Shown here piece by piece: positions 4,233 to 61,151 of a stretch of DNA of 64,000 nt. The translations under genes were made by a program, and so were the position numbers. How positions within the stretch are numbered: position 1 is the first letter of the stretch; the number at the start of each line of letters is the position of its first letter. The notes under the pieces are model-generated. The model saw only the letters and a list, made by a program, of their open reading frames with translations. It was not told the origin of the DNA and did no database searches. Location of the stretch: positions 1-64,000 of the IMG/VR virus record IMGVR_UViG_3300027972_000007; one strand, 5' to 3'. This DNA is from a virus.

Positions 4233-4490
4233 TTACCTTTTCTTATTCTTCGGCTTTGCTTTTTCTTCTTTTGCAGCATCTGGGATCTGTTCTTTCTTTG
4301 CCTTCTTCTTTCTTTCTGCAGATTTTTCCAACTCTTCATTGTGCTCGCCCATCCACGAAGAAACTGCAGTACCAGCATCTTCAAATGTAGCATATCTCTT
4401 ATCCCATACTTCTCTCACGTTACCTTTCTTAATCAAAGTAACTTTAATTCCGTCCTTCTTCTTCGACAATGCAACTAATAGTGTAGACAT
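4233..4490 (-). CDS. Small basic hypothetical protein
   Basis: ORF with AGGAG SD; Lys-rich C-terminus. Confidence 0.6.
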   Translation of the reverse strand: MSTLLVALSKKKDGIKVTLIKKGNVREVWDKRYATFEDAGTAVSSWMGEHNEELEKSAERKKKAKKEQIPDAAKEEKAKPKNKKR

Positions 4491-4551
4491 ACAGAAACTC
4501 CTTTAAAAATTGTTTATGAAAAATTACAATAATGATTTATTATTGTTTTGA

Positions 4552-14334: not shown

Positions 14335-14742
14335 ATGGGTAAATTTAAAGAATATTTATTAAATGAACAACAGAAAATTAAACATAGAAAAAATTATCAA
14401 ATTAAGTTTGATTTATCTACAATAGGTCGAAATGATTGGGATAAAGAAATTTTATCTAATAAAGACGATTTTGTTATTAAGTTATCTTATATGAGTCCAG
14501 ATGAATTTTTAGATAAAACTGATGCTTCTCGATATTTAGTTGATCAAGCAAAACTTGATAAAATAAAAAGTACTTTAGGAACGAAAGCATTACCGGCTTT
14601 AATAATAATTTGGGGCGCAGGCGGCGATAAACATAAATCAGCTTTTCATGATGGTCAGCATCGAGCTATAGCATTAAAGATGTTAGGAATTACACGTATT
14701 CCAGTATACCAAGTATGGGATAAAGAATACTTTAGAAAATAA
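14335..14742 (+). CDS. CTS-leader protein with a ParB/Srx-like motif
   Basis: MGKFKEYLLNE; MSPDEFL...HDGQHRAIA...GI..IPV. Confidence 0.7.
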   Translation: MGKFKEYLLNEQQKIKHRKNYQIKFDLSTIGRNDWDKEILSNKDDFVIKLSYMSPDEFLDKTDASRYLVDQAKLDKIKSTLGTKALPALIIIWGAGGDKHKSAFHDGQHRAIALKMLGITRIPVYQVWDKEYFRK

Positions 14743-22874: not shown

Positions 22875-23099
22875 ATGAAGTCAGTATTAGAGTATTTAAA
22901 TGAGAGTACAAAATATGTATCAGTAGATACAAACGCATTCGAAAATGAATATGGAAAGAAACCAAAAGGAATAGCCGGATGGGCATTTAAAATTAATGGG
23001 AAAGAATTTTCTTTTAGTGGTAGTTATTCAGAAGCAGTAAAAAAAGCTAAAGAAAGAGCATCTAATATGGGTGTATATTCAATAACACTTATGATTTAA
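22875..23099 (+). CDS. CTS-leader 74-aa protein, copy 1
   Basis: MKSVLEYLNE; identical to 56707..56931. Confidence 0.8.
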   Translation: MKSVLEYLNESTKYVSVDTNAFENEYGKKPKGIAGWAFKINGKEFSFSGSYSEAVKKAKERASNMGVYSITLMI

Positions 23100-23138
23100 T
23101 ACAGTAATGATAAATAATTTTTAAATAAGGAGAAAAAC

Positions 23139-56676: not shown

Positions 56677-56951
56677 ATATTATAAATAATTAAAAAGGAT
56701 GGAAATATGAAGTCAGTATTAGAGTATTTAAATGAGAGTACAAAATATGTATCAGTAGATACAAACGCATTCGAAAATGAATATGGAAAGAAACCAAAAG
56801 GAATAGCCGGATGGGCATTTAAAATTAATGGGAAAGAATTTTCTTTTAGTGGTAGTTATTCAGAAGCAGTAAAAAAAGCTAAAGAAAGAGCATCTAATAT
56901 GGGTGTATATTCAATAACACTTATGATTTAATACAGTAATGATAAATAATT
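56677..56951 (+). repeat. Exact 275-bp duplicate of 22845..23119, containing the 74-aa CTS gene (56707..56931)
   Basis: Base-by-base identity read by eye. Confidence 0.92.
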
Positions 56952-57199: not shown

Positions 57200-57276
57200 C
57201 GGGGCGTATTGTAATCTGGTAACACTCCTGACTTGGGATCAGGAAAGTGAGGGTTCAAATCCCTCTGTCCCGACCA
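57200..57276 (+). tRNA. tRNA-Pro(TGG)
   Basis: Cloverleaf; loop CTTGGGA; CCA. Confidence 0.9.
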
Positions 57277-57279
57277 TAT

Positions 57280-57363
57280 TGACGAGTAGTCTAATGGCAA
57301 GACAGCAGGCTGTTAACCTGCCGCAGAATAATCTGTTTGGAGGTTCGAATCCTCTCTCGTCAG
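57280..57363 (+). tRNA. tRNA-Asn(GTT) with a long variable arm
   Basis: GCAGG-CTGTTAA-CCTGC. Confidence 0.85.
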
Positions 57364-57374
57364 CTAAATTATAT

Positions 57375-57446
57375 TGCAGAGTACAGTATTGGTAACTGAG
57401 GAGCCTCATAAGCTTCTTTATATGGGTTCAAATCCCATCTCTGCTA
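57375..57446 (+). tRNA. tRNA-Met(CAT), possibly initiator (1:72 mismatch)
   Basis: Loop CTCATAA. Confidence 0.8.
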
Positions 57447-57452
57447 AATTTC

Positions 57453-57527
57453 GACTGAGTGGTGAAGTCCGGTTAACACGGTAGTCTGCAAAACTATTAT
57501 TCACAGGTTCAAATCCTGTCTCGGTCT
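57453..57527 (+). tRNA. tRNA-Cys(GCA)
   Basis: Loop CTGCAAA; U73. Confidence 0.88.
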
Positions 57528-57531
57528 TTTC

Positions 57532-57617
57532 GGAGGATTAGGATAATTGGTAATCCAACAGTCTTGAAAACTGTCGTCAGAAATGATTTGAGGGTTCGAG
57601 TCCCTTGTCCTCCGCCA
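57532..57617 (+). tRNA. tRNA-Ser(TGA)
   Basis: Loop CTTGAAA; long variable arm; CCA. Confidence 0.9.
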
Positions 57618-57625
57618 AATTATAT

Positions 57626-57701
57626 GTTGGAGGTAGTTCAAAGGTAGAACATTGGATTGTGGTTCCAATAGTTGCGGGTTCAAATCCCGTCTTCCAACCC
57701 A
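57626..57701 (+). tRNA. tRNA-His(GTG)
   Basis: Loop TTGTGGT; G-1:C73. Confidence 0.9.
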
Positions 57702-57707
57702 AAATAT

Positions 57708-57783
57708 AGCGCTGTCGCCAAGTGGTTAAGGCGCCACTCTGATAAGGTGGTATACAACGGTTCAACTCCGTTCAGCGCTACCA
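57708..57783 (+). tRNA. tRNA-Ile(GAT)
   Basis: Loop CTGATAA; CCA. Confidence 0.9.
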
Positions 57784-57789
57784 AATTTT

Positions 57790-57865
57790 GCTGGTGTAAC
57801 TCAATTGGTAGAGTAGTAGTTTTGTAAACTACAAGTTAAGTGTTCGAATCACTTCATCAGCTCCA
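57790..57865 (+). tRNA. tRNA-Thr(TGT)
   Basis: Loop TTTGTAA; CCA. Confidence 0.9.
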
Positions 57866-57873
57866 AATTACAT

Positions 57874-57948
57874 GGGTCATAACAGTCGGACGGGCGAGTT
57901 TCCTTTGCAAGGAAATTTTGATGGGTGGAACTCCCATATGATCCACCA
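57874..57948 (+). tRNA. tRNA-Ala(TGC) with non-canonical D arm and T loop
   Basis: Loop TTTGCAA; G3:U70; CCA. Confidence 0.75.
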
Positions 57949-57954
57949 AATTAA

Positions 57955-58030
57955 GCGGATATCGTTTAGTTGATAAGACCTCTGCCTTCCAAGCAGGTGA
58001 CTGCCGGTTTGAATCCGGCTATCCGCACCA
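57955..58030 (+). tRNA. tRNA-Gly(TCC)
   Basis: Loop CTTCCAA; CCA. Confidence 0.88.
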
Positions 58031-58074
58031 ATATATACAGGTTCAACTCCTGTTAATCATATTAATTTTAATAT

Positions 58075-58174
58075 ACGTCTGTAGCTCAACGAATAGAGCG
58101 CTTGGTCACGAACCAAGGACTTCTCAGCCACGAACTGAGGACTTGTGAGGGTTTGAATCCTTCCAGACGTACCA
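58075..58174 (+). tRNA. tRNA-Arg(ACG) with a duplicated anticodon arm
   Basis: Two tandem 5-bp stems, each with a YCACGAA loop; CCA. Confidence 0.8.
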
Positions 58175-58175
58175 C

Positions 58176-58252
58176 GCGACGGTCGATTAGTTGGTTAAGT
58201 CTCTGGATTGTCAATCCAGTGATCGTGGGTTCAAATCCCATTCGTCGCGCCA
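58176..58252 (+). tRNA. tRNA-Asp(GTC)
   Basis: Loop TTGTCAA; GCCA. Confidence 0.9.
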
Positions 58253-58258
58253 AATCAT

Positions 58259-58343
58259 GGAGACGTATGTTAATGGTAAACAACAGGTTTGCTAAACCTG
58301 CGTCTGAAAAGATTTCAGGGTTCAAATCCCTGCGTCCCCGCCA
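58259..58343 (+). tRNA. tRNA-Ser(GCT)
   Basis: Loop TTGCTAA; long variable arm. Confidence 0.88.
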
Positions 58344-58350
58344 AGTTTAT

Positions 58351-58423
58351 GCAGCAATATATCAATTGGTAGATAGCCACTTTGCCAAGGTGGAGGTTGC
58401 CGGTTCAAGCCCGGTTTGCTGCT
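58351..58423 (+). tRNA. tRNA-Gly(GCC)
   Basis: Loop TTGCCAA. Confidence 0.88.
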
Positions 58424-58438
58424 TTTATAAAAATTATC

Positions 58439-58528
58439 GGGCAGGAGGTCAGATATCGGTTGGCTGCACCAGACTGTAAATCTGGATTCTGTAATAGAAC
58501 GTGGAAGGTTCAACTCCTTCTCTGCCCA
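58439..58528 (+). tRNA. tRNA-Tyr(GTA)
   Basis: Loop CTGTAAA; long variable arm. Confidence 0.88.
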
Positions 58529-58545
58529 TAAGTTCTTTGAAAATT

Positions 58546-58620
58546 GCCCCCATAACTCAGATGGTTTAGAGTAATTCACTTTTAATGAATAAGTCGTCAG
58601 TTCGAATCTGACTGGGGGTA
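58546..58620 (+). tRNA. tRNA-Lys(TTT)
   Basis: Loop CTTTTAA. Confidence 0.9.
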
Positions 58621-58630
58621 TAAAATTATT

Positions 58631-58705
58631 GGGCAAGTGGCGAAATTGGTATCCGCGATAGTTTCAAAAACTATACAAATAAGAGTTCGAATCTCTTCTT
58701 GCCCA
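58631..58705 (+). tRNA. tRNA-Leu(CAA) with a short variable loop
   Basis: ATAGT-TTCAAAA-ACTAT; Leu-type D arm. Confidence 0.78.
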
Positions 58706-58715
58706 TAAAGTTTTT

Positions 58716-58797
58716 AGCCTGATGGTGGAATTGGCATACACGCAAGTCTTAGAAACTTGTTCTGAAAAGATTGAGAGTTCAAATCTCTCTCGGGCTA
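58716..58797 (+). tRNA. tRNA-Leu(TAG)
   Basis: Loop CTTAGAA; variable arm. Confidence 0.88.
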
Positions 58798-58808
58798 TAT
58801 AAATTATT

Positions 58809-58885
58809 GCTCCTGTAGCTCAAATGAATAGAGTAAGACGCTTCTAACGTCGAGGTTGCAGGTTTGAATCCTGCCAGGAGTACCA
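58809..58885 (+). tRNA. tRNA-Arg(TCT)
   Basis: Loop CTTCTAA; CCA. Confidence 0.9.
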
Positions 58886-58902
58886 TTATAAAAGAAGGAC
58901 GT

Positions 58903-59493
58903 ATGTTACAGACACTGGAATTAAATAAAGCATCAGTTCCTGTTGGAATTATATCTGCTAAAAGAGCATTAATAGCAGTATGTAATAAAAGAGCTATTGC
59001 TTTAGCAAATTATGATAAAGTTTATCATTCATCGGATTATATATGCATGGATTTGAATTTAGTAAAAGGAAAGAATTCATTAATATCAATTCCTATTCCA
59101 TCAGTCATACGATTTATTGATTCTGATTTCATGCCAAAAAGATATACAAATATTTTACCATTTAATCGCATGAATGTGTATATAAGAGATAGTGGAACTT
59201 GTTGTTATTGTGGTAAAAAAGTATCCATAAGTAATTTTACTTTTGATCATGTTATACCAAGGGCTGATGGAGGAAAAAGCTGTTGGGAAAATGTTGTGGT
59301 GAGTTGTGTAAAATGCAATAATCAAAAGGATAGAATTCCATTACATAAATTTTCAAAGAAACTTATAAAAAAACCATATGTACCACATTTAACGAAAGCA
59401 GCACCAGAACATTTAGTAAGTAGAATAGCAATGGAAATACCACATGAAACATGGTTAGATTATATTTACTGGAGAATAGAATTAGAAGAGTAA
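58903..59493 (+). CDS. HNH endonuclease
   Basis: Start revised to MLQTL; RD...CCYCG, TFDHVIPR..GG and WEN.V.SC..CN.K motifs. Confidence 0.9.
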   Translation: MLQTLELNKASVPVGIISAKRALIAVCNKRAIALANYDKVYHSSDYICMDLNLVKGKNSLISIPIPSVIRFIDSDFMPKRYTNILPFNRMNVYIRDSGTCCYCGKKVSISNFTFDHVIPRADGGKSCWENVVVSCVKCNNQKDRIPLHKFSKKLIKKPYVPHLTKAAPEHLVSRIAMEIPHETWLDYIYWRIELEE

Positions 59494-59900: not shown

Positions 59901-61151
59901 ATGAGATTGGTTTATAAATTCAACTTTACTGATACTTCAGATTATTTGAATAATCTTTGTATTATTTCAAAGAATTTATATAATCAGGCCAATTATTTGA
60001 TTAAACAAGAATTAAATACTAATAAAAAGTGGTTACGTTATAATGATTTAGATAAAATAATGAAAGTAACTAAAAATCTTGAAAGTAATATTAATTATAG
60101 ATTACTTAAATCTCATGTTGCTCAACAATGTTTAAAGTTATTAGATAAAAATTGGTCGTCTTTTTTTATGTCAATTAAATGTTGGAAAGCAAATAAAGAT
60201 AATTATAAGGGTATGCCCAAATCACCTTATTATCTTAAAAAAGATAAGAATTTATTAATATATACTAATCAAGTTTCTAAAATAAAAGATAATAAAATTT
60301 ATCTTTCTAAAGATTTTACTATAGATATACCTAAGTATAAAGATTTTAGTAAATTTCAACAGATAAGAGTATTACCTACATATATCAAAAATCAATTTGA
60401 AGTAGAGATAATTTATAATCAAGACATAAAGAATGAAAATCTGAATTATGATAAGTATTCTTCTATTGATTTAGGATTAAATAATTTGGTGTCTTTAGTT
60501 TCCGAAAACAAACCAATATTAATTAATGGAAATATACTTAAATCATATAATCAATTATACAATAAACAAAAAGCTAAATTATATTCAGTTAAAGATAAAA
60601 TGAAGAATAAACATTACACAAGGAGACTATATGAGTTAGAAAAGAATAGAAATAATTACGTCAAAGATTATTTACACAAAGTTTCAAGATTAATGATTAA
60701 TTATTTAATTAAGAATAAGATTGGTAATTTAGTTATAGGTCACAATAAACAATGGAAAGACTCCATTAATATAGGGCATAAAAATAACCAGGCTTTTGTT
60801 ACTATTCCTCATTCACAATTAATTAATTATTTAACATATAAATCTGAACTTTGTGGTATTAAGGTGCAAGAAGTTGAAGAGAGTTATACATCTAAATGTG
60901 ATTCTTTAGCTAATGAAACTATAGAAAAACATGAAGTATATTTAGGAAAAAGAATAAAAAGAGGATTATTTCAAAGTTCGTCAAGAAAATTAATTAATGC
61001 AGATGTTAATGGAGCTTTGAATATAATGAGAAAAGTAGTTGGTAATTCTTATGCAAATAAGATAATCAATAGTGGGTTCTTGTTTAACCCAGTAAAGATA
61101 AGGAATCTGTTTTCAAACTCTTTGCAAACTTGTTTATTAAAGATAACATGA
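59901..61151 (+). mobile_element. tnpB: TnpB-family RNA-guided nuclease with rearranged RuvC-II; no TnpA
   Basis: LYNQANY, SIDLGLNNL, DYLHK.SR, VIGHN, EESYTSKC and NADVNGALNI motifs. Confidence 0.9.

What the first reader, a model, noticed from the sequence alone, without database searches (positions are those of the whole stretch)
58075..58174. tRNA-Arg(ACG) carrying two anticodon-like stem-loops
Seen: a tandem 22-nt unit, CTTGG-TCACGAA-CCAAG-GACTT (58101-58122) followed by CTCAG-CCACGAA-CTGAG-GACTT (58123-58144). The two stems differ in sequence but both pair perfectly, and both 7-nt loops present ACG with an atypical C at position 33. Loop-to-loop removal of 22 nt would still give a stem that pairs (CTTGG/CTGAG with two G-U pairs). 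Inference: paired changes suggest selection on the structure. It may be a decoy or redundant loop against anticodon nucleases or for TadA, an unusual intron, or a novel extra-arm tRNA.
Basis: partly seen in the sequence, partly recalled or inferred. Interest (0 to 1): 0.75.

Follow-up and report, generated by a model that had tools for sequence, protein, structure and literature searches.

The report
Phage arginine tRNA with duplicated anticodon arm
A gene in the tRNA cluster of an uncultured T4-like phage encodes an arginine tRNA whose anticodon arm is present twice in tandem; both copies look maintained by selection, but I found it in only this one phage and nothing shows that the RNA is made or charged.

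Summary
Window 58075-58174 (+) is a tRNA-Arg(ACG) gene (Rfam tRNA 47.4 bits against a 29-bit cut-off; ARAGORN misses it). Positions 27-48, the anticodon arm plus 5 nt, occur twice in tandem (58101-58122 and 58123-58144).

- The copies differ at five sites, all transitions. Four form two compensated stem pairs and one is loop position 32.
- Both loops have C33. All 21 other tRNAs of this phage have U33.
- Deleting either copy gives an ordinary 78-nt tRNA-Arg(ACG).

New evidence:
- Folding: identical copies would cross-pair (chimeric stem P 0.22-0.41). The real, diverged stems remove this (P 0.000, both hairpins at least 0.98).
- The first stem equals that of 130 bacterial tRNA-Arg(ACG) genes. 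The second stem is in no bacterial tRNA. The first arm is therefore probably the original and the second a derived extra arm in the variable-arm position.
- The same sequence occurs in three assemblies.

No relative carries the gene, so conservation, expression and charging are untested. An intron is not supported, and decoy roles remain speculation. I found no paper describing a natural two-arm tRNA. Unchecked notes from this scan report two-arm tRNA-Ile(UAU)/GAU and CUA/UUG tRNAs on other phage DNA. Verdict: a new variant of a known kind, of moderate interest.

The parts
58075..58174 (+). Whole gene: tRNA-Arg(ACG) with two anticodon-type arms, 97 nt plus encoded CCA
   Evidence: Rfam RF00005 hit at 58075-58171, 47.4 bits against a 29-bit cut-off. 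The MFE fold is a five-arm cloverleaf at -33.2 kcal/mol, z -2.2.
58075..58081 (+). Acceptor stem, 5' strand (ACGUCUG)
   Evidence: Pairs 7/7 Watson-Crick with 58164-58170.
58084..58099 (+). D arm: GCUC-AACGAAUA-GAGC. I read the loop as G18 A19 A20, with A20 the ArgRS identity base.
   Evidence: Pair probability 1.0. The same D arm occurs in other Arg-type tRNAs, most of which have U56 in the T loop.
58101..58117 (+). Arm 1: CUUGG-UCACGAA-CCAAG. It lies in the canonical anticodon-arm place, 1 nt after the D stem.
   Evidence: Pair probability 0.98-1.0. Its stem is identical to that of 130 bacterial tRNA-Arg(ACG) genes. Rfam aligns it as the anticodon arm.
58118..58122 (+). First GACUU linker (end of repeat unit 1)
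   Evidence: Sequence. Its UU can pair with the GA that follows arm 2 (P 0.84 and 0.95).
58123..58139 (+). Arm 2: CUCAG-CCACGAA-CUGAG, the derived copy in the variable-arm position
   Evidence: Pair probability 0.99-1.0, extendable to a 7-bp stem. This stem occurs in none of the 12 tRNA genes called in 102 genome hits. Rfam treats it as an insertion in the variable region.
58140..58146 (+). GACUUGU: the second GACUU plus GU. This is the 7-nt variable loop of the inferred single-arm ancestor.
   Evidence: ARAGORN draws it as the variable loop in both single-unit deletion variants.
58147..58163 (+). T arm: GAGGG-UUUGAAU-CCUUC, with U56 instead of C56
   Evidence: U56 goes with A19 in the D loop, as in the phage's tRNA-Arg(UCU).
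58164..58174 (+). Acceptor 3' strand CAGACGU, discriminator A73, encoded CCA. One nucleotide then separates it from tRNA-Asp (58176).
57200..58885 (+). The surrounding run of tRNA genes. On the + strand there is no terminator-like site between 57152 and 59565.
   Evidence: ARAGORN and Rfam; terminator scan.

Best explanation
This is a real tRNA-Arg(ACG) gene of a T4-like, AT-rich phage in which the 22-nt segment 27-48 (anticodon arm plus five variable-loop bases) was tandemly duplicated.

Shown:
- The RNA is predicted to fold as a five-arm cloverleaf.
- Arm 1 has the stem of natural bacterial tRNA-Arg(ACG).
- Arm 2 has a stem seen in no bacterial tRNA.
- The two stems have diverged by two compensated transitions, which removes the cross-pairing that identical copies would suffer.

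Inferred:
- Arm 1 remains the decoding arm.
- Arm 2 protrudes where class II tRNAs carry their long variable arm, and is kept as a tidy, insulated hairpin so that the tRNA still folds, is charged by ArgRS (A20, C35, G36, A73) and reads CGN codons.
- C33 in both loops probably predates the duplication. It probably weakens TadA editing, leaving A34.
For: - Gene quality: Rfam scores it 47.4 bits and places arm 2 as a variable-region insertion. The acceptor (7/7), D (4/4) and T (5/5) stems are intact and CCA is encoded. It lies in a tight array with no + strand terminator-like site between 57152 and 59565.
- Single-arm forms: deleting either unit gives a 78-nt tRNA-Arg(acg) that ARAGORN accepts.
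- Repeat beyond chance: 4 of 3000 shuffles reach the observed identity.
- Compensation: two compensated pairs among five differences have P 1.4e-4 to 1.1e-3, or 1.4e-3 to 1.2e-2 given four stem changes.
- Folding: in the real sequence AC1 is 0.98, AC2 0.99 and the chimeric stem 0.000. With two identical copies the chimeric stem rises to 0.41 or 0.22 and the hairpins fall to 0.57-0.78.
- Polarity: arm 1's stem occurs in 130 bacterial tRNA-Arg(acg) genes, and arm 2's stem in none.
- Use: CGN codons are about 22% of Arg codons in the phage, and it has no other CGN-reading tRNA.
- Tolerance: tRNAs engineered with an anticodon-arm mimic in the V-arm are active in E. coli (PMC7590224).
- Not an assembler artefact: the sequence is identical in three assemblies.
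Against: - Only one phage has it. No relative carrying the gene could be found, so there is no cross-species conservation or covariation.
- There are no expression, charging or modification data.
- The 29-nt variable region is, to my knowledge, longer than in natural class II tRNAs.
- C33 is unfavourable for the U-turn (my knowledge).
- The array also holds a decayed tRNA piece and a non-decoding tRNA look-alike, so not everything in it is a working tRNA.
- Nothing tested distinguishes which arm decodes, apart from topology and stem ancestry.
Confidence: 0.55

Rival explanations
1. The second ACG arm has a job of its own as a natural 'pseudo-anticodon' arm. It might offer a second docking site for a protein that reads the tRNA-Arg anticodon stem-loop (ArgRS), or act as a bait or competitor for a host anticodon nuclease. 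Selection would then keep its loop as well as its stem.
For: - The loop is kept at 6 of 7 positions, including ACG and A37 A38, while the stem changed at 2 of 5 pairs.
- Engineered pseudo-anticodon V-arms can raise charging when a matching anticodon-binding domain is present (PMC7590224).
- Phage tRNAs are proposed to carry anticodon-loop changes that escape host tRNases, including colicin D, which targets tRNA-Arg (PMC10264068).
- Unchecked notes from this scan report phage tRNA-Ile(UAU) and amber suppressors with a second arm showing the cognate anticodon.
Against: - One loop difference among five is what chance gives (about 1.6 expected), so loop conservation is not significant.
- Both arms carry the same anticodon, so the 'identity arm versus decoding arm' logic proposed for the Ile and suppressor cases does not apply.
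- C33 should weaken TadA binding (PMC10586758).
- No nuclease or partner is identified, and the feature is not seen in other phages.
Confidence: 0.2
2. It is a dead or dying gene. A slippage duplication disabled a tRNA-Arg(ACG), and the sequence merely persists in the array, perhaps only as a processing spacer.
For: - ARAGORN rejects it, with or without intron search.
- It is unique to one phage.
- The array holds a lone T-arm remnant 22 nt upstream and a sealed-hairpin tRNA look-alike, so decay and rearrangement do occur here.
- CGN codons are a minority of Arg codons.
Against: - After five substitutions in the repeat, every helix of the gene is still perfect.
- The four stem changes are exactly the two compensated pairs that abolish cross-pairing.
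- Tertiary and identity positions are intact (A19:U56, A20, C35, G36, A73), and CCA is encoded.
Confidence: 0.2
3. The roles are reversed: arm 2 is the decoding arm, and arm 1 is an extra hairpin inserted between position 26 and the anticodon stem.
For: - Arm 2 keeps C32, as in canonical tRNA-Arg(ACG) and in the single-arm metagenomic homologue L075, which has the loop CCACGAA.
- In arm 1, U32 can pair with A38 and shrink the loop to 5 nt (P 0.92).
- Arm 2 is followed by the same 7-nt variable loop and T arm as in the inferred ancestor.
Against: - To my knowledge, natural tRNAs tolerate long insertions only in the variable region, and the Rfam model places the insertion there.
- Arm 1 has the natural tRNA-Arg stem and arm 2 does not.
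- Arm 2 extends to a 7-bp stem, which is unlike an anticodon stem.
Confidence: 0.15
4. The 22 extra nucleotides are removed from the precursor, either as an intron or by nuclease cleavage in both loops followed by RNA ligation, to give a 75-78 nt tRNA.
For: - Any in-register 22-nt deletion gives a tRNA-Arg that ARAGORN accepts, including the loop-to-loop product with two G-U pairs.
- The phage encodes a protein matching the RNA_ligase family at 103222-103692.
Against: - No ribozyme could fit in 22 nt.
- To my knowledge, no splicing endonuclease for bulge-helix-bulge introns is known in bacteria or their phages.
- ARAGORN's intron mode finds nothing.
- The precursor folds into two independent hairpins, with no sign of a structure joining the splice sites.
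- The compensatory changes would be pointless in an excised segment.
Confidence: 0.03
5. The gene is a fusion of two diverged tRNA-Arg(ACG) paralogues, positions 1-48 of one and 27-76 of the other. The compensated differences would then predate the fusion and say nothing about selection on the two-arm RNA.
For: Deletions do occur in the array, as the T-arm remnant shows. A fusion would also give in-register units.
Against: - There is no microhomology at the required junction (GACUU|C against GAGCG|C).
- No second Arg(ACG) gene or arm-like sequence exists elsewhere in the 170-kb record.
- Arm 2's stem is found in no bacterial tRNA-Arg(ACG).
- Both loops share the rare C33, and the acceptor halves match 7/7.
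Confidence: 0.05

Closest known systems
Canonical bacterial and phage tRNA-Arg(ACG/ICG), Rfam RF00005, e.g. the Burkholderiales genes found
   Same: The acceptor, D, anticodon and T arms are all present. The anticodon is ACG with A37 A38, the discriminator is A73, and the D loop is of the A20 type. Arm 1's stem CUUGG/CCAAG is identical to theirs.
   Different: It has a 22-nt tandem copy of positions 27-48. Position 33 is C instead of U, and position 32 is U in arm 1. The elbow pair is A19:U56 instead of G19:C56. The basal variable loop is 7 nt. The gene is 97 nt, against the 73-78 nt (mostly 77, some including CCA) that ARAGORN reports for the bacterial genes.
Class II tRNAs (Leu, Ser, Tyr, Sec) and V-arm tRNAs with other anticodons (nematode nev-tRNAs, PMC3333845)
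   Same: They have an extra helix between the anticodon arm and the T arm, the only place where natural tRNAs carry long insertions.
   Different: Here the extra arm is a recognisable copy of the tRNA's own anticodon arm, with a 7-nt ACG loop. The variable region is 29 nt. The identity elements are those of Arg, not Leu or Ser.
Engineered tRNAs with a pseudo-anticodon arm in the V-arm (Mukai 2020, PMC7590224)
   Same: An anticodon-arm mimic is placed in the variable-arm position of a tRNA that still works in translation. It was designed as a protein docking site.
   Different: Those are synthetic, built on allo-tRNA chassis, with a pseudo-anticodon that differs from the decoding anticodon. This one is natural, and both arms show ACG.
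Phage tRNAs with two anticodon-type arms noted earlier in this scan (tRNA-Ile UAU plus a GAU arm; amber suppressor CUA plus a UUG arm). These are unpublished AI notes.
   Same: A phage tRNA in which a second arm of about 22 nt, shaped like an anticodon arm, follows the anticodon arm. Such genes are missed by tRNA finders.
   Different: In those families the two loops differ (decoding versus cognate anticodon) and the design recurs in many phages. Here both loops are ACG and only one phage has it. I did not verify those notes: my one pattern scan for the Ile type found none.

Membership tests
tRNA (Rfam RF00005) | Covariance-model score above the gathering cut-off | tested here: met
   47.4 bits against 29, E 5e-07 for the whole window.
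tRNA (Rfam RF00005) | Four canonical helices (7-bp acceptor, 4-bp D, 5-bp anticodon, 5-bp T) with a 7-nt T loop | tested here: met
   All are present and fully paired, with one G-U in the T stem.
tRNA (Rfam RF00005) | U33 preceding the anticodon | tested here: not met
   C33 in both loops. All 21 other tRNAs of this phage have U33.
tRNA (Rfam RF00005) | Accepted by a standard tRNA finder | tested here: not met
   ARAGORN finds nothing, with or without intron search. It accepts each 22-nt deletion variant.
Bacterial tRNA-Arg identity set (A20, C35, G/U36, A/G73) | C35, G36 and A73 present | tested here: met
   Read directly from the sequence.
Bacterial tRNA-Arg identity set (A20, C35, G/U36, A/G73) | A20 in the D loop | tested here: inconclusive
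   The D loop AACGAAUA reads as G18 A19 A20 if aligned with the phage's tRNA-Arg(UCU) loop AAAUGAAUA and with U56. The Rfam alignment places the bases differently.
Bacterial tRNA-Arg identity set (A20, C35, G/U36, A/G73) | Aminoacylation with arginine | not testable with these tools
   This needs an ArgRS charging assay.
Class II (long variable arm) tRNA | Extra helix between the anticodon arm and the T arm | tested here: met
   Arm 2 forms with P of at least 0.99 and extends to 7 bp. Rfam puts it in the variable region.
Class II (long variable arm) tRNA | Leu, Ser, Tyr or Sec identity | tested here: not met
   Anticodon ACG and an Arg-type D loop.
Intron-containing tRNA gene (group I or bulge-helix-bulge) | A ribozyme core, or a bulge-helix-bulge at the splice sites | tested here: not met
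   22 nt is too short for a ribozyme. ARAGORN's intron mode gives nothing. The fold is two separate hairpins.
Two-anticodon-arm phage tRNAs (this scan's notes) | Second arm of anticodon-arm shape directly after the anticodon arm | tested here: met
Two-anticodon-arm phage tRNAs (this scan's notes) | The two loops show different anticodons (decoding versus cognate) | tested here: not met
   Both loops are ACG.
Two-anticodon-arm phage tRNAs (this scan's notes) | Recurs in many phages | tested here: not met
   There is no second case in IMG/VR by two pattern scans, none in 2 Mb of held loci, and none in the relatives examined.

The most novel reading that the evidence does not exclude
This gene would be a natural tRNA with two working anticodon-type arms, caught soon after its birth. 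On this reading, a 22-nt duplication created a second ACG arm that selection has insulated from the first and now uses as a docking or decoy site for a protein that reads the tRNA-Arg anticodon loop (ArgRS or a host tRNA-Arg nuclease). It would then be the starting state from which the phage two-arm tRNAs with unlike anticodons (Ile UAU/GAU, CUA/UUG) evolve.
Probability: 0.2. Interest if true: 0.8.

Novelty: new variant of a known kind. Interest (0 to 1): 0.5.

Why it matters
To my knowledge, tRNA shape is among the most conserved features in biology, and long insertions are accepted only as the variable arm of Leu, Ser, Tyr and Sec tRNAs. This gene shows how such an arm can arise in one step, by duplication of the anticodon arm. 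It also shows what selection does next: the two stems diverge so that they no longer cross-pair.

If the RNA is functional, it extends the known limits of what ArgRS, EF-Tu and the ribosome accept. It would also be a natural counterpart to engineered pseudo-anticodon tRNAs, and a plausible origin for the two-arm phage tRNAs that this scan keeps finding.

C33 is a separate point of interest. It may keep A34 unedited, so that one phage tRNA could read all four CGN codons. That idea is directly testable.

If the gene is only a tolerated relic, it is still a useful warning that standard tRNA finders drop such genes from phage tRNA inventories.

Tried and rejected
- **Relatives, by DNA pattern.** The D-arm 19-mer in viral contigs, metagenome contigs and genome contigs found only other Arg-type tRNAs.
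- **Other double ACG arms.** Two pattern scans found only chance matches in coding DNA. A generic two-hairpin tRNA scanner over 2 Mb of held loci recovered only this gene.
- **Relatives, by protein.**
  - A flanking metallophosphatase has no hit above 49% identity.
  - The capsid has relatives at 69% (NCBI MAG GCA_024449895.1, DNA not retrievable; not in genome contigs) and at 61%.
  - I walked about 95 kb of the 61% relative and found no tRNA at all.
  - An IMG/VR relative at 47% capsid identity has 23 tRNAs, none longer than 87 nt and no Arg(ACG).
  - The scan's own index has no look-alike stretch.
- **Verifying the scan's two-arm tRNA-Ile family.** One pattern scan found none. The pattern may simply be wrong, so this says nothing about that family.
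- **Is the long arm of tRNA-Asn an older copy of its anticodon arm?** The alignment is no better than shuffles (p 0.27). Rejected.
- **Tandem Repeats Finder.** It does not report the repeat, because five mismatches in 22 score too low.
- **Phage-encoded enzymes.** There is no TadA-like deaminase match. The Rnl1 search was uninformative because its control did not ring. An RNA_ligase-family gene exists but does not bear on the reading.
- **Host-arm mimicry.** Arm 2 matches no bacterial tRNA. All 103 genome matches to its 17-mer lie outside tRNA genes.
- **Literature.** I found no paper on a natural duplicated anticodon arm.

Full report
**Setting**

The window is the first 64 kb of a 170,170-bp IMG/VR virus record with 27.7% G+C, estimated 74% complete. 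It encodes a T4-type major capsid protein (Gp23), a large terminase and a tail sheath. The closest isolated phages share only about 33% capsid identity.

Between 57200 and 61330 lies a + strand array of tRNA genes. ARAGORN of them. Rfam adds two more: 58075-58171 (47.4 bits) and a class II tRNA-Tyr at 58439-58528. Spacers are 1-10 nt and many genes encode CCA. No + strand terminator-like site lies between 57152 and 59565.

**The observation**

The gene reads ACGUCUG UA GCUC-AACGAAUA-GAGC G [CUUGG-UCACGAA-CCAAG-GACUU][CUCAG-CCACGAA-CUGAG-GACUU] GU GAGGG-UUUGAAU-CCUUC CAGACGU A CCA. One nucleotide then separates it from tRNA-Asp.

- The best internal tandem match is period 22 at tRNA position 27, with 17/22 identical. 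Only 4 of 3000 shuffles reach this, although 2.8% of tiles of this AT-rich window do.
- The five differences are all transitions. U29-A41 becomes C-G, G30-C40 becomes A-U, and U32 becomes C.
- Both hairpins are perfect Watson-Crick.
- Both loops have C33. All 21 other tRNAs of the phage have U33.
- The same 100 nt occur unchanged in a 25-kb JGI metagenome contig and in a 7.9-kb Logan contig. This excludes an artefact of one assembler, but these are the same phage.

**What it is**

Rfam aligns arm 1 as the anticodon arm and treats arm 2 plus its linkers as a 26-nt insertion in the variable region. The minimum-energy and centroid folds are the same five-arm cloverleaf (-33.2 kcal/mol, z -2.2).

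- Pair probabilities are 0.98-1.0 for both arms.
- Arm 2 can extend to 7 bp using the flanking UU and GA.
- Removing either unit, or 22 nt loop to loop, gives a 78-nt tRNA-Arg(acg) with a 7-nt variable loop that ARAGORN accepts. The intact gene is rejected even with intron search.
- The body looks functional. All helices are intact. U56 in the T loop goes with A19 in a GAAUA D-loop motif that the phage's tRNA-Arg(UCU) and most of a set of metagenomic Arg-type tRNAs share. C35, G36 and A73 are present, and probably A20.
- CGN codons make up about 22% of the phage's Arg codons, and it has no other CGN reader.

**Evidence for selection, and a reason for it**

Under neutral change after a duplication, five differences would include two fully compensated Watson-Crick pairs with probability 1.4e-4 (any substitution) to 1.1e-3 (transitions only). 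Given four stem differences, the figure is 1.4e-3 to 1.2e-2.

Folding supplies a cause. If the two units were identical, the 5' strand of arm 1 would pair with the 3' strand of arm 2 with probability 0.41 (unit 1 twice) or 0.22 (unit 2 twice), and each hairpin would drop to 0.57-0.78. In the real sequence the chimeric stem has probability 0.000 and both hairpins are at least 0.98. The two compensated changes are therefore those that insulate the copies from each other. That makes sense only if correct folding of the whole RNA matters.

**Polarity**

The arm 1 stem, CUUGG/CCAAG, is the anticodon stem of 130 bacterial tRNA-Arg(acg) genes, mostly from Burkholderiales, and all of them have the loop CUACGAA. 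The arm 2 sequence occurs 103 times in bacterial genomes, never in a tRNA.

Arm 1 thus keeps an ancestral-type stem, and arm 2 is the derived copy. This fits arm 2 being the extra arm in the variable-arm position. It also weakens the idea that the gene is a fusion of two natural paralogues. No other copy of either arm exists in the record.

One counter-point remains. Arm 2 keeps C32, as do canonical tRNA-Arg and the single-arm homologue L075 with loop CCACGAA. In arm 1, U32 can pair with A38 (P 0.92). I give the reversed assignment about 15%.

**C33**

TadA reads U33 through two base-specific hydrogen bonds (PMC10586758). C33 would lose both, so A34 may stay unedited. Non-deaminated tRNA-Arg(ACG) has been proposed to read all four CGN codons (PMC3711424). 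This is inference only.

C33 is not unique to this gene. It occurs in 11 of 134 distinct tRNAs in the viral and metagenomic arrays I fetched.

**Relatives**

None carries the gene. DNA pattern scans of three collections, two scans for double ACG arms, and a structural scan of 2 Mb of held loci found only unrelated tRNAs or chance matches.

- The capsid has relatives at 69% identity (DNA not retrievable) and at 61%.
- About 95 kb of the 61% relative holds no tRNA.
- A 47% relative has 23 tRNAs but no Arg(ACG).

Conservation, the strongest possible test, is therefore unavailable.

**Comparison with what is known**

I found no paper on a natural tRNA with a duplicated anticodon arm. The nearest published things are:
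- class II tRNAs and nematode V-arm tRNAs (PMC3333845);
- Mukai's engineered tRNAs with a pseudo-anticodon arm in the V-arm, which are active in E. coli (PMC7590224).

Unchecked notes from this scan describe recurrent phage tRNA-Ile(UAU) genes with a second GAU arm, one of them '22 nt', and an amber suppressor with a UUG arm. The present gene has the same layout but identical anticodons and no known relatives. It could represent the starting state of such architectures. I did not verify those notes.

**Verdict**

The intron reading is not supported, and decoy roles are untested. My estimates for the main readings:
- A functional five-arm tRNA-Arg with arm 2 as an insulated passenger arm: about 0.55.
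- Arm 2 having a function of its own: about 0.2.
- A dead gene: about 0.2.

Noticed in passing
57873-57950 (+): A tRNA-shaped RNA between tRNA-Thr and tRNA-Gly. It has an 8-bp acceptor-type stem, a T arm (UGGG-UGGAACU-CCCA) and an encoded CCA, but a sealed 10-bp hairpin with a 3-nt loop where the anticodon arm should be. Neither ARAGORN nor Rfam calls it. It resembles the 'anticodon-less tRNA mimics' noted elsewhere in this scan.
   Followed up: partly
58037-58053 (+): A lone T-arm hairpin, ACAGG-UUCAACU-CCUGU, plus 7 nt, lying 22 nt upstream of the two-arm gene. It differs by one base from the T arm of the phage's tRNA-Cys. It looks like the 3' remnant of a deleted or partly duplicated tRNA.
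   Followed up: no
57280-57364 and 58630-58706; locus L276 (G002) 14378-14462, 4341-4494: tRNA-Asn(GUU) has a long variable arm (85 nt, G73), and tRNA-Leu(CAA) has only a 7-nt variable loop (77 nt). A distant relative (IMGVR_UViG_3300037245_001419, capsid 47% identical) also has an 85-nt Asn(GUU) and 75-nt Leu(UAG) and Leu(UAA). The swapped arm classes are therefore conserved in this phage lineage.
   Followed up: partly
58439-58528 (+): A class II tRNA-Tyr(GUA) found by Rfam at 33.9 bits and missed by ARAGORN.
   Followed up: no
58864-59493 and 59901-61151 (+): An HNH endonuclease gene and a TnpB (OrfB_IS605 plus Cas12f1-like TNB) gene sit inside the tRNA array.
   Followed up: no
22997-23119 and 56829-56951 (+): An exact 123-bp direct repeat, 34 kb apart. 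The second copy lies about 250 bp upstream of the tRNA array.
   Followed up: no
Loci L057, L063, L067, L072, L075, L076, L079, L135: C33 instead of U33 occurs in 11 of 134 distinct tRNAs from viral and metagenomic tRNA arrays, including Ile, Lys, Met, Pro, Gln and Arg. This is far more than I would expect for cellular elongator tRNAs.
   Followed up: no
L002 7932-8005 and L135 4878-4950: tRNAs with an Arg-type D arm but loops UUACCGA and CCACCGA, which ARAGORN calls Gly(ACC). The reading of the anticodon is unclear.
   Followed up: no
L192 10600-12540 (relative, ENA k119_1891752): In the 61% capsid relative there is a 2-kb stretch of tandem mini-genes. Each starts with MSKLIK/N and continues as (S/N)SI-type repeats, on both strands, at a place where no genes were called.
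   Followed up: no
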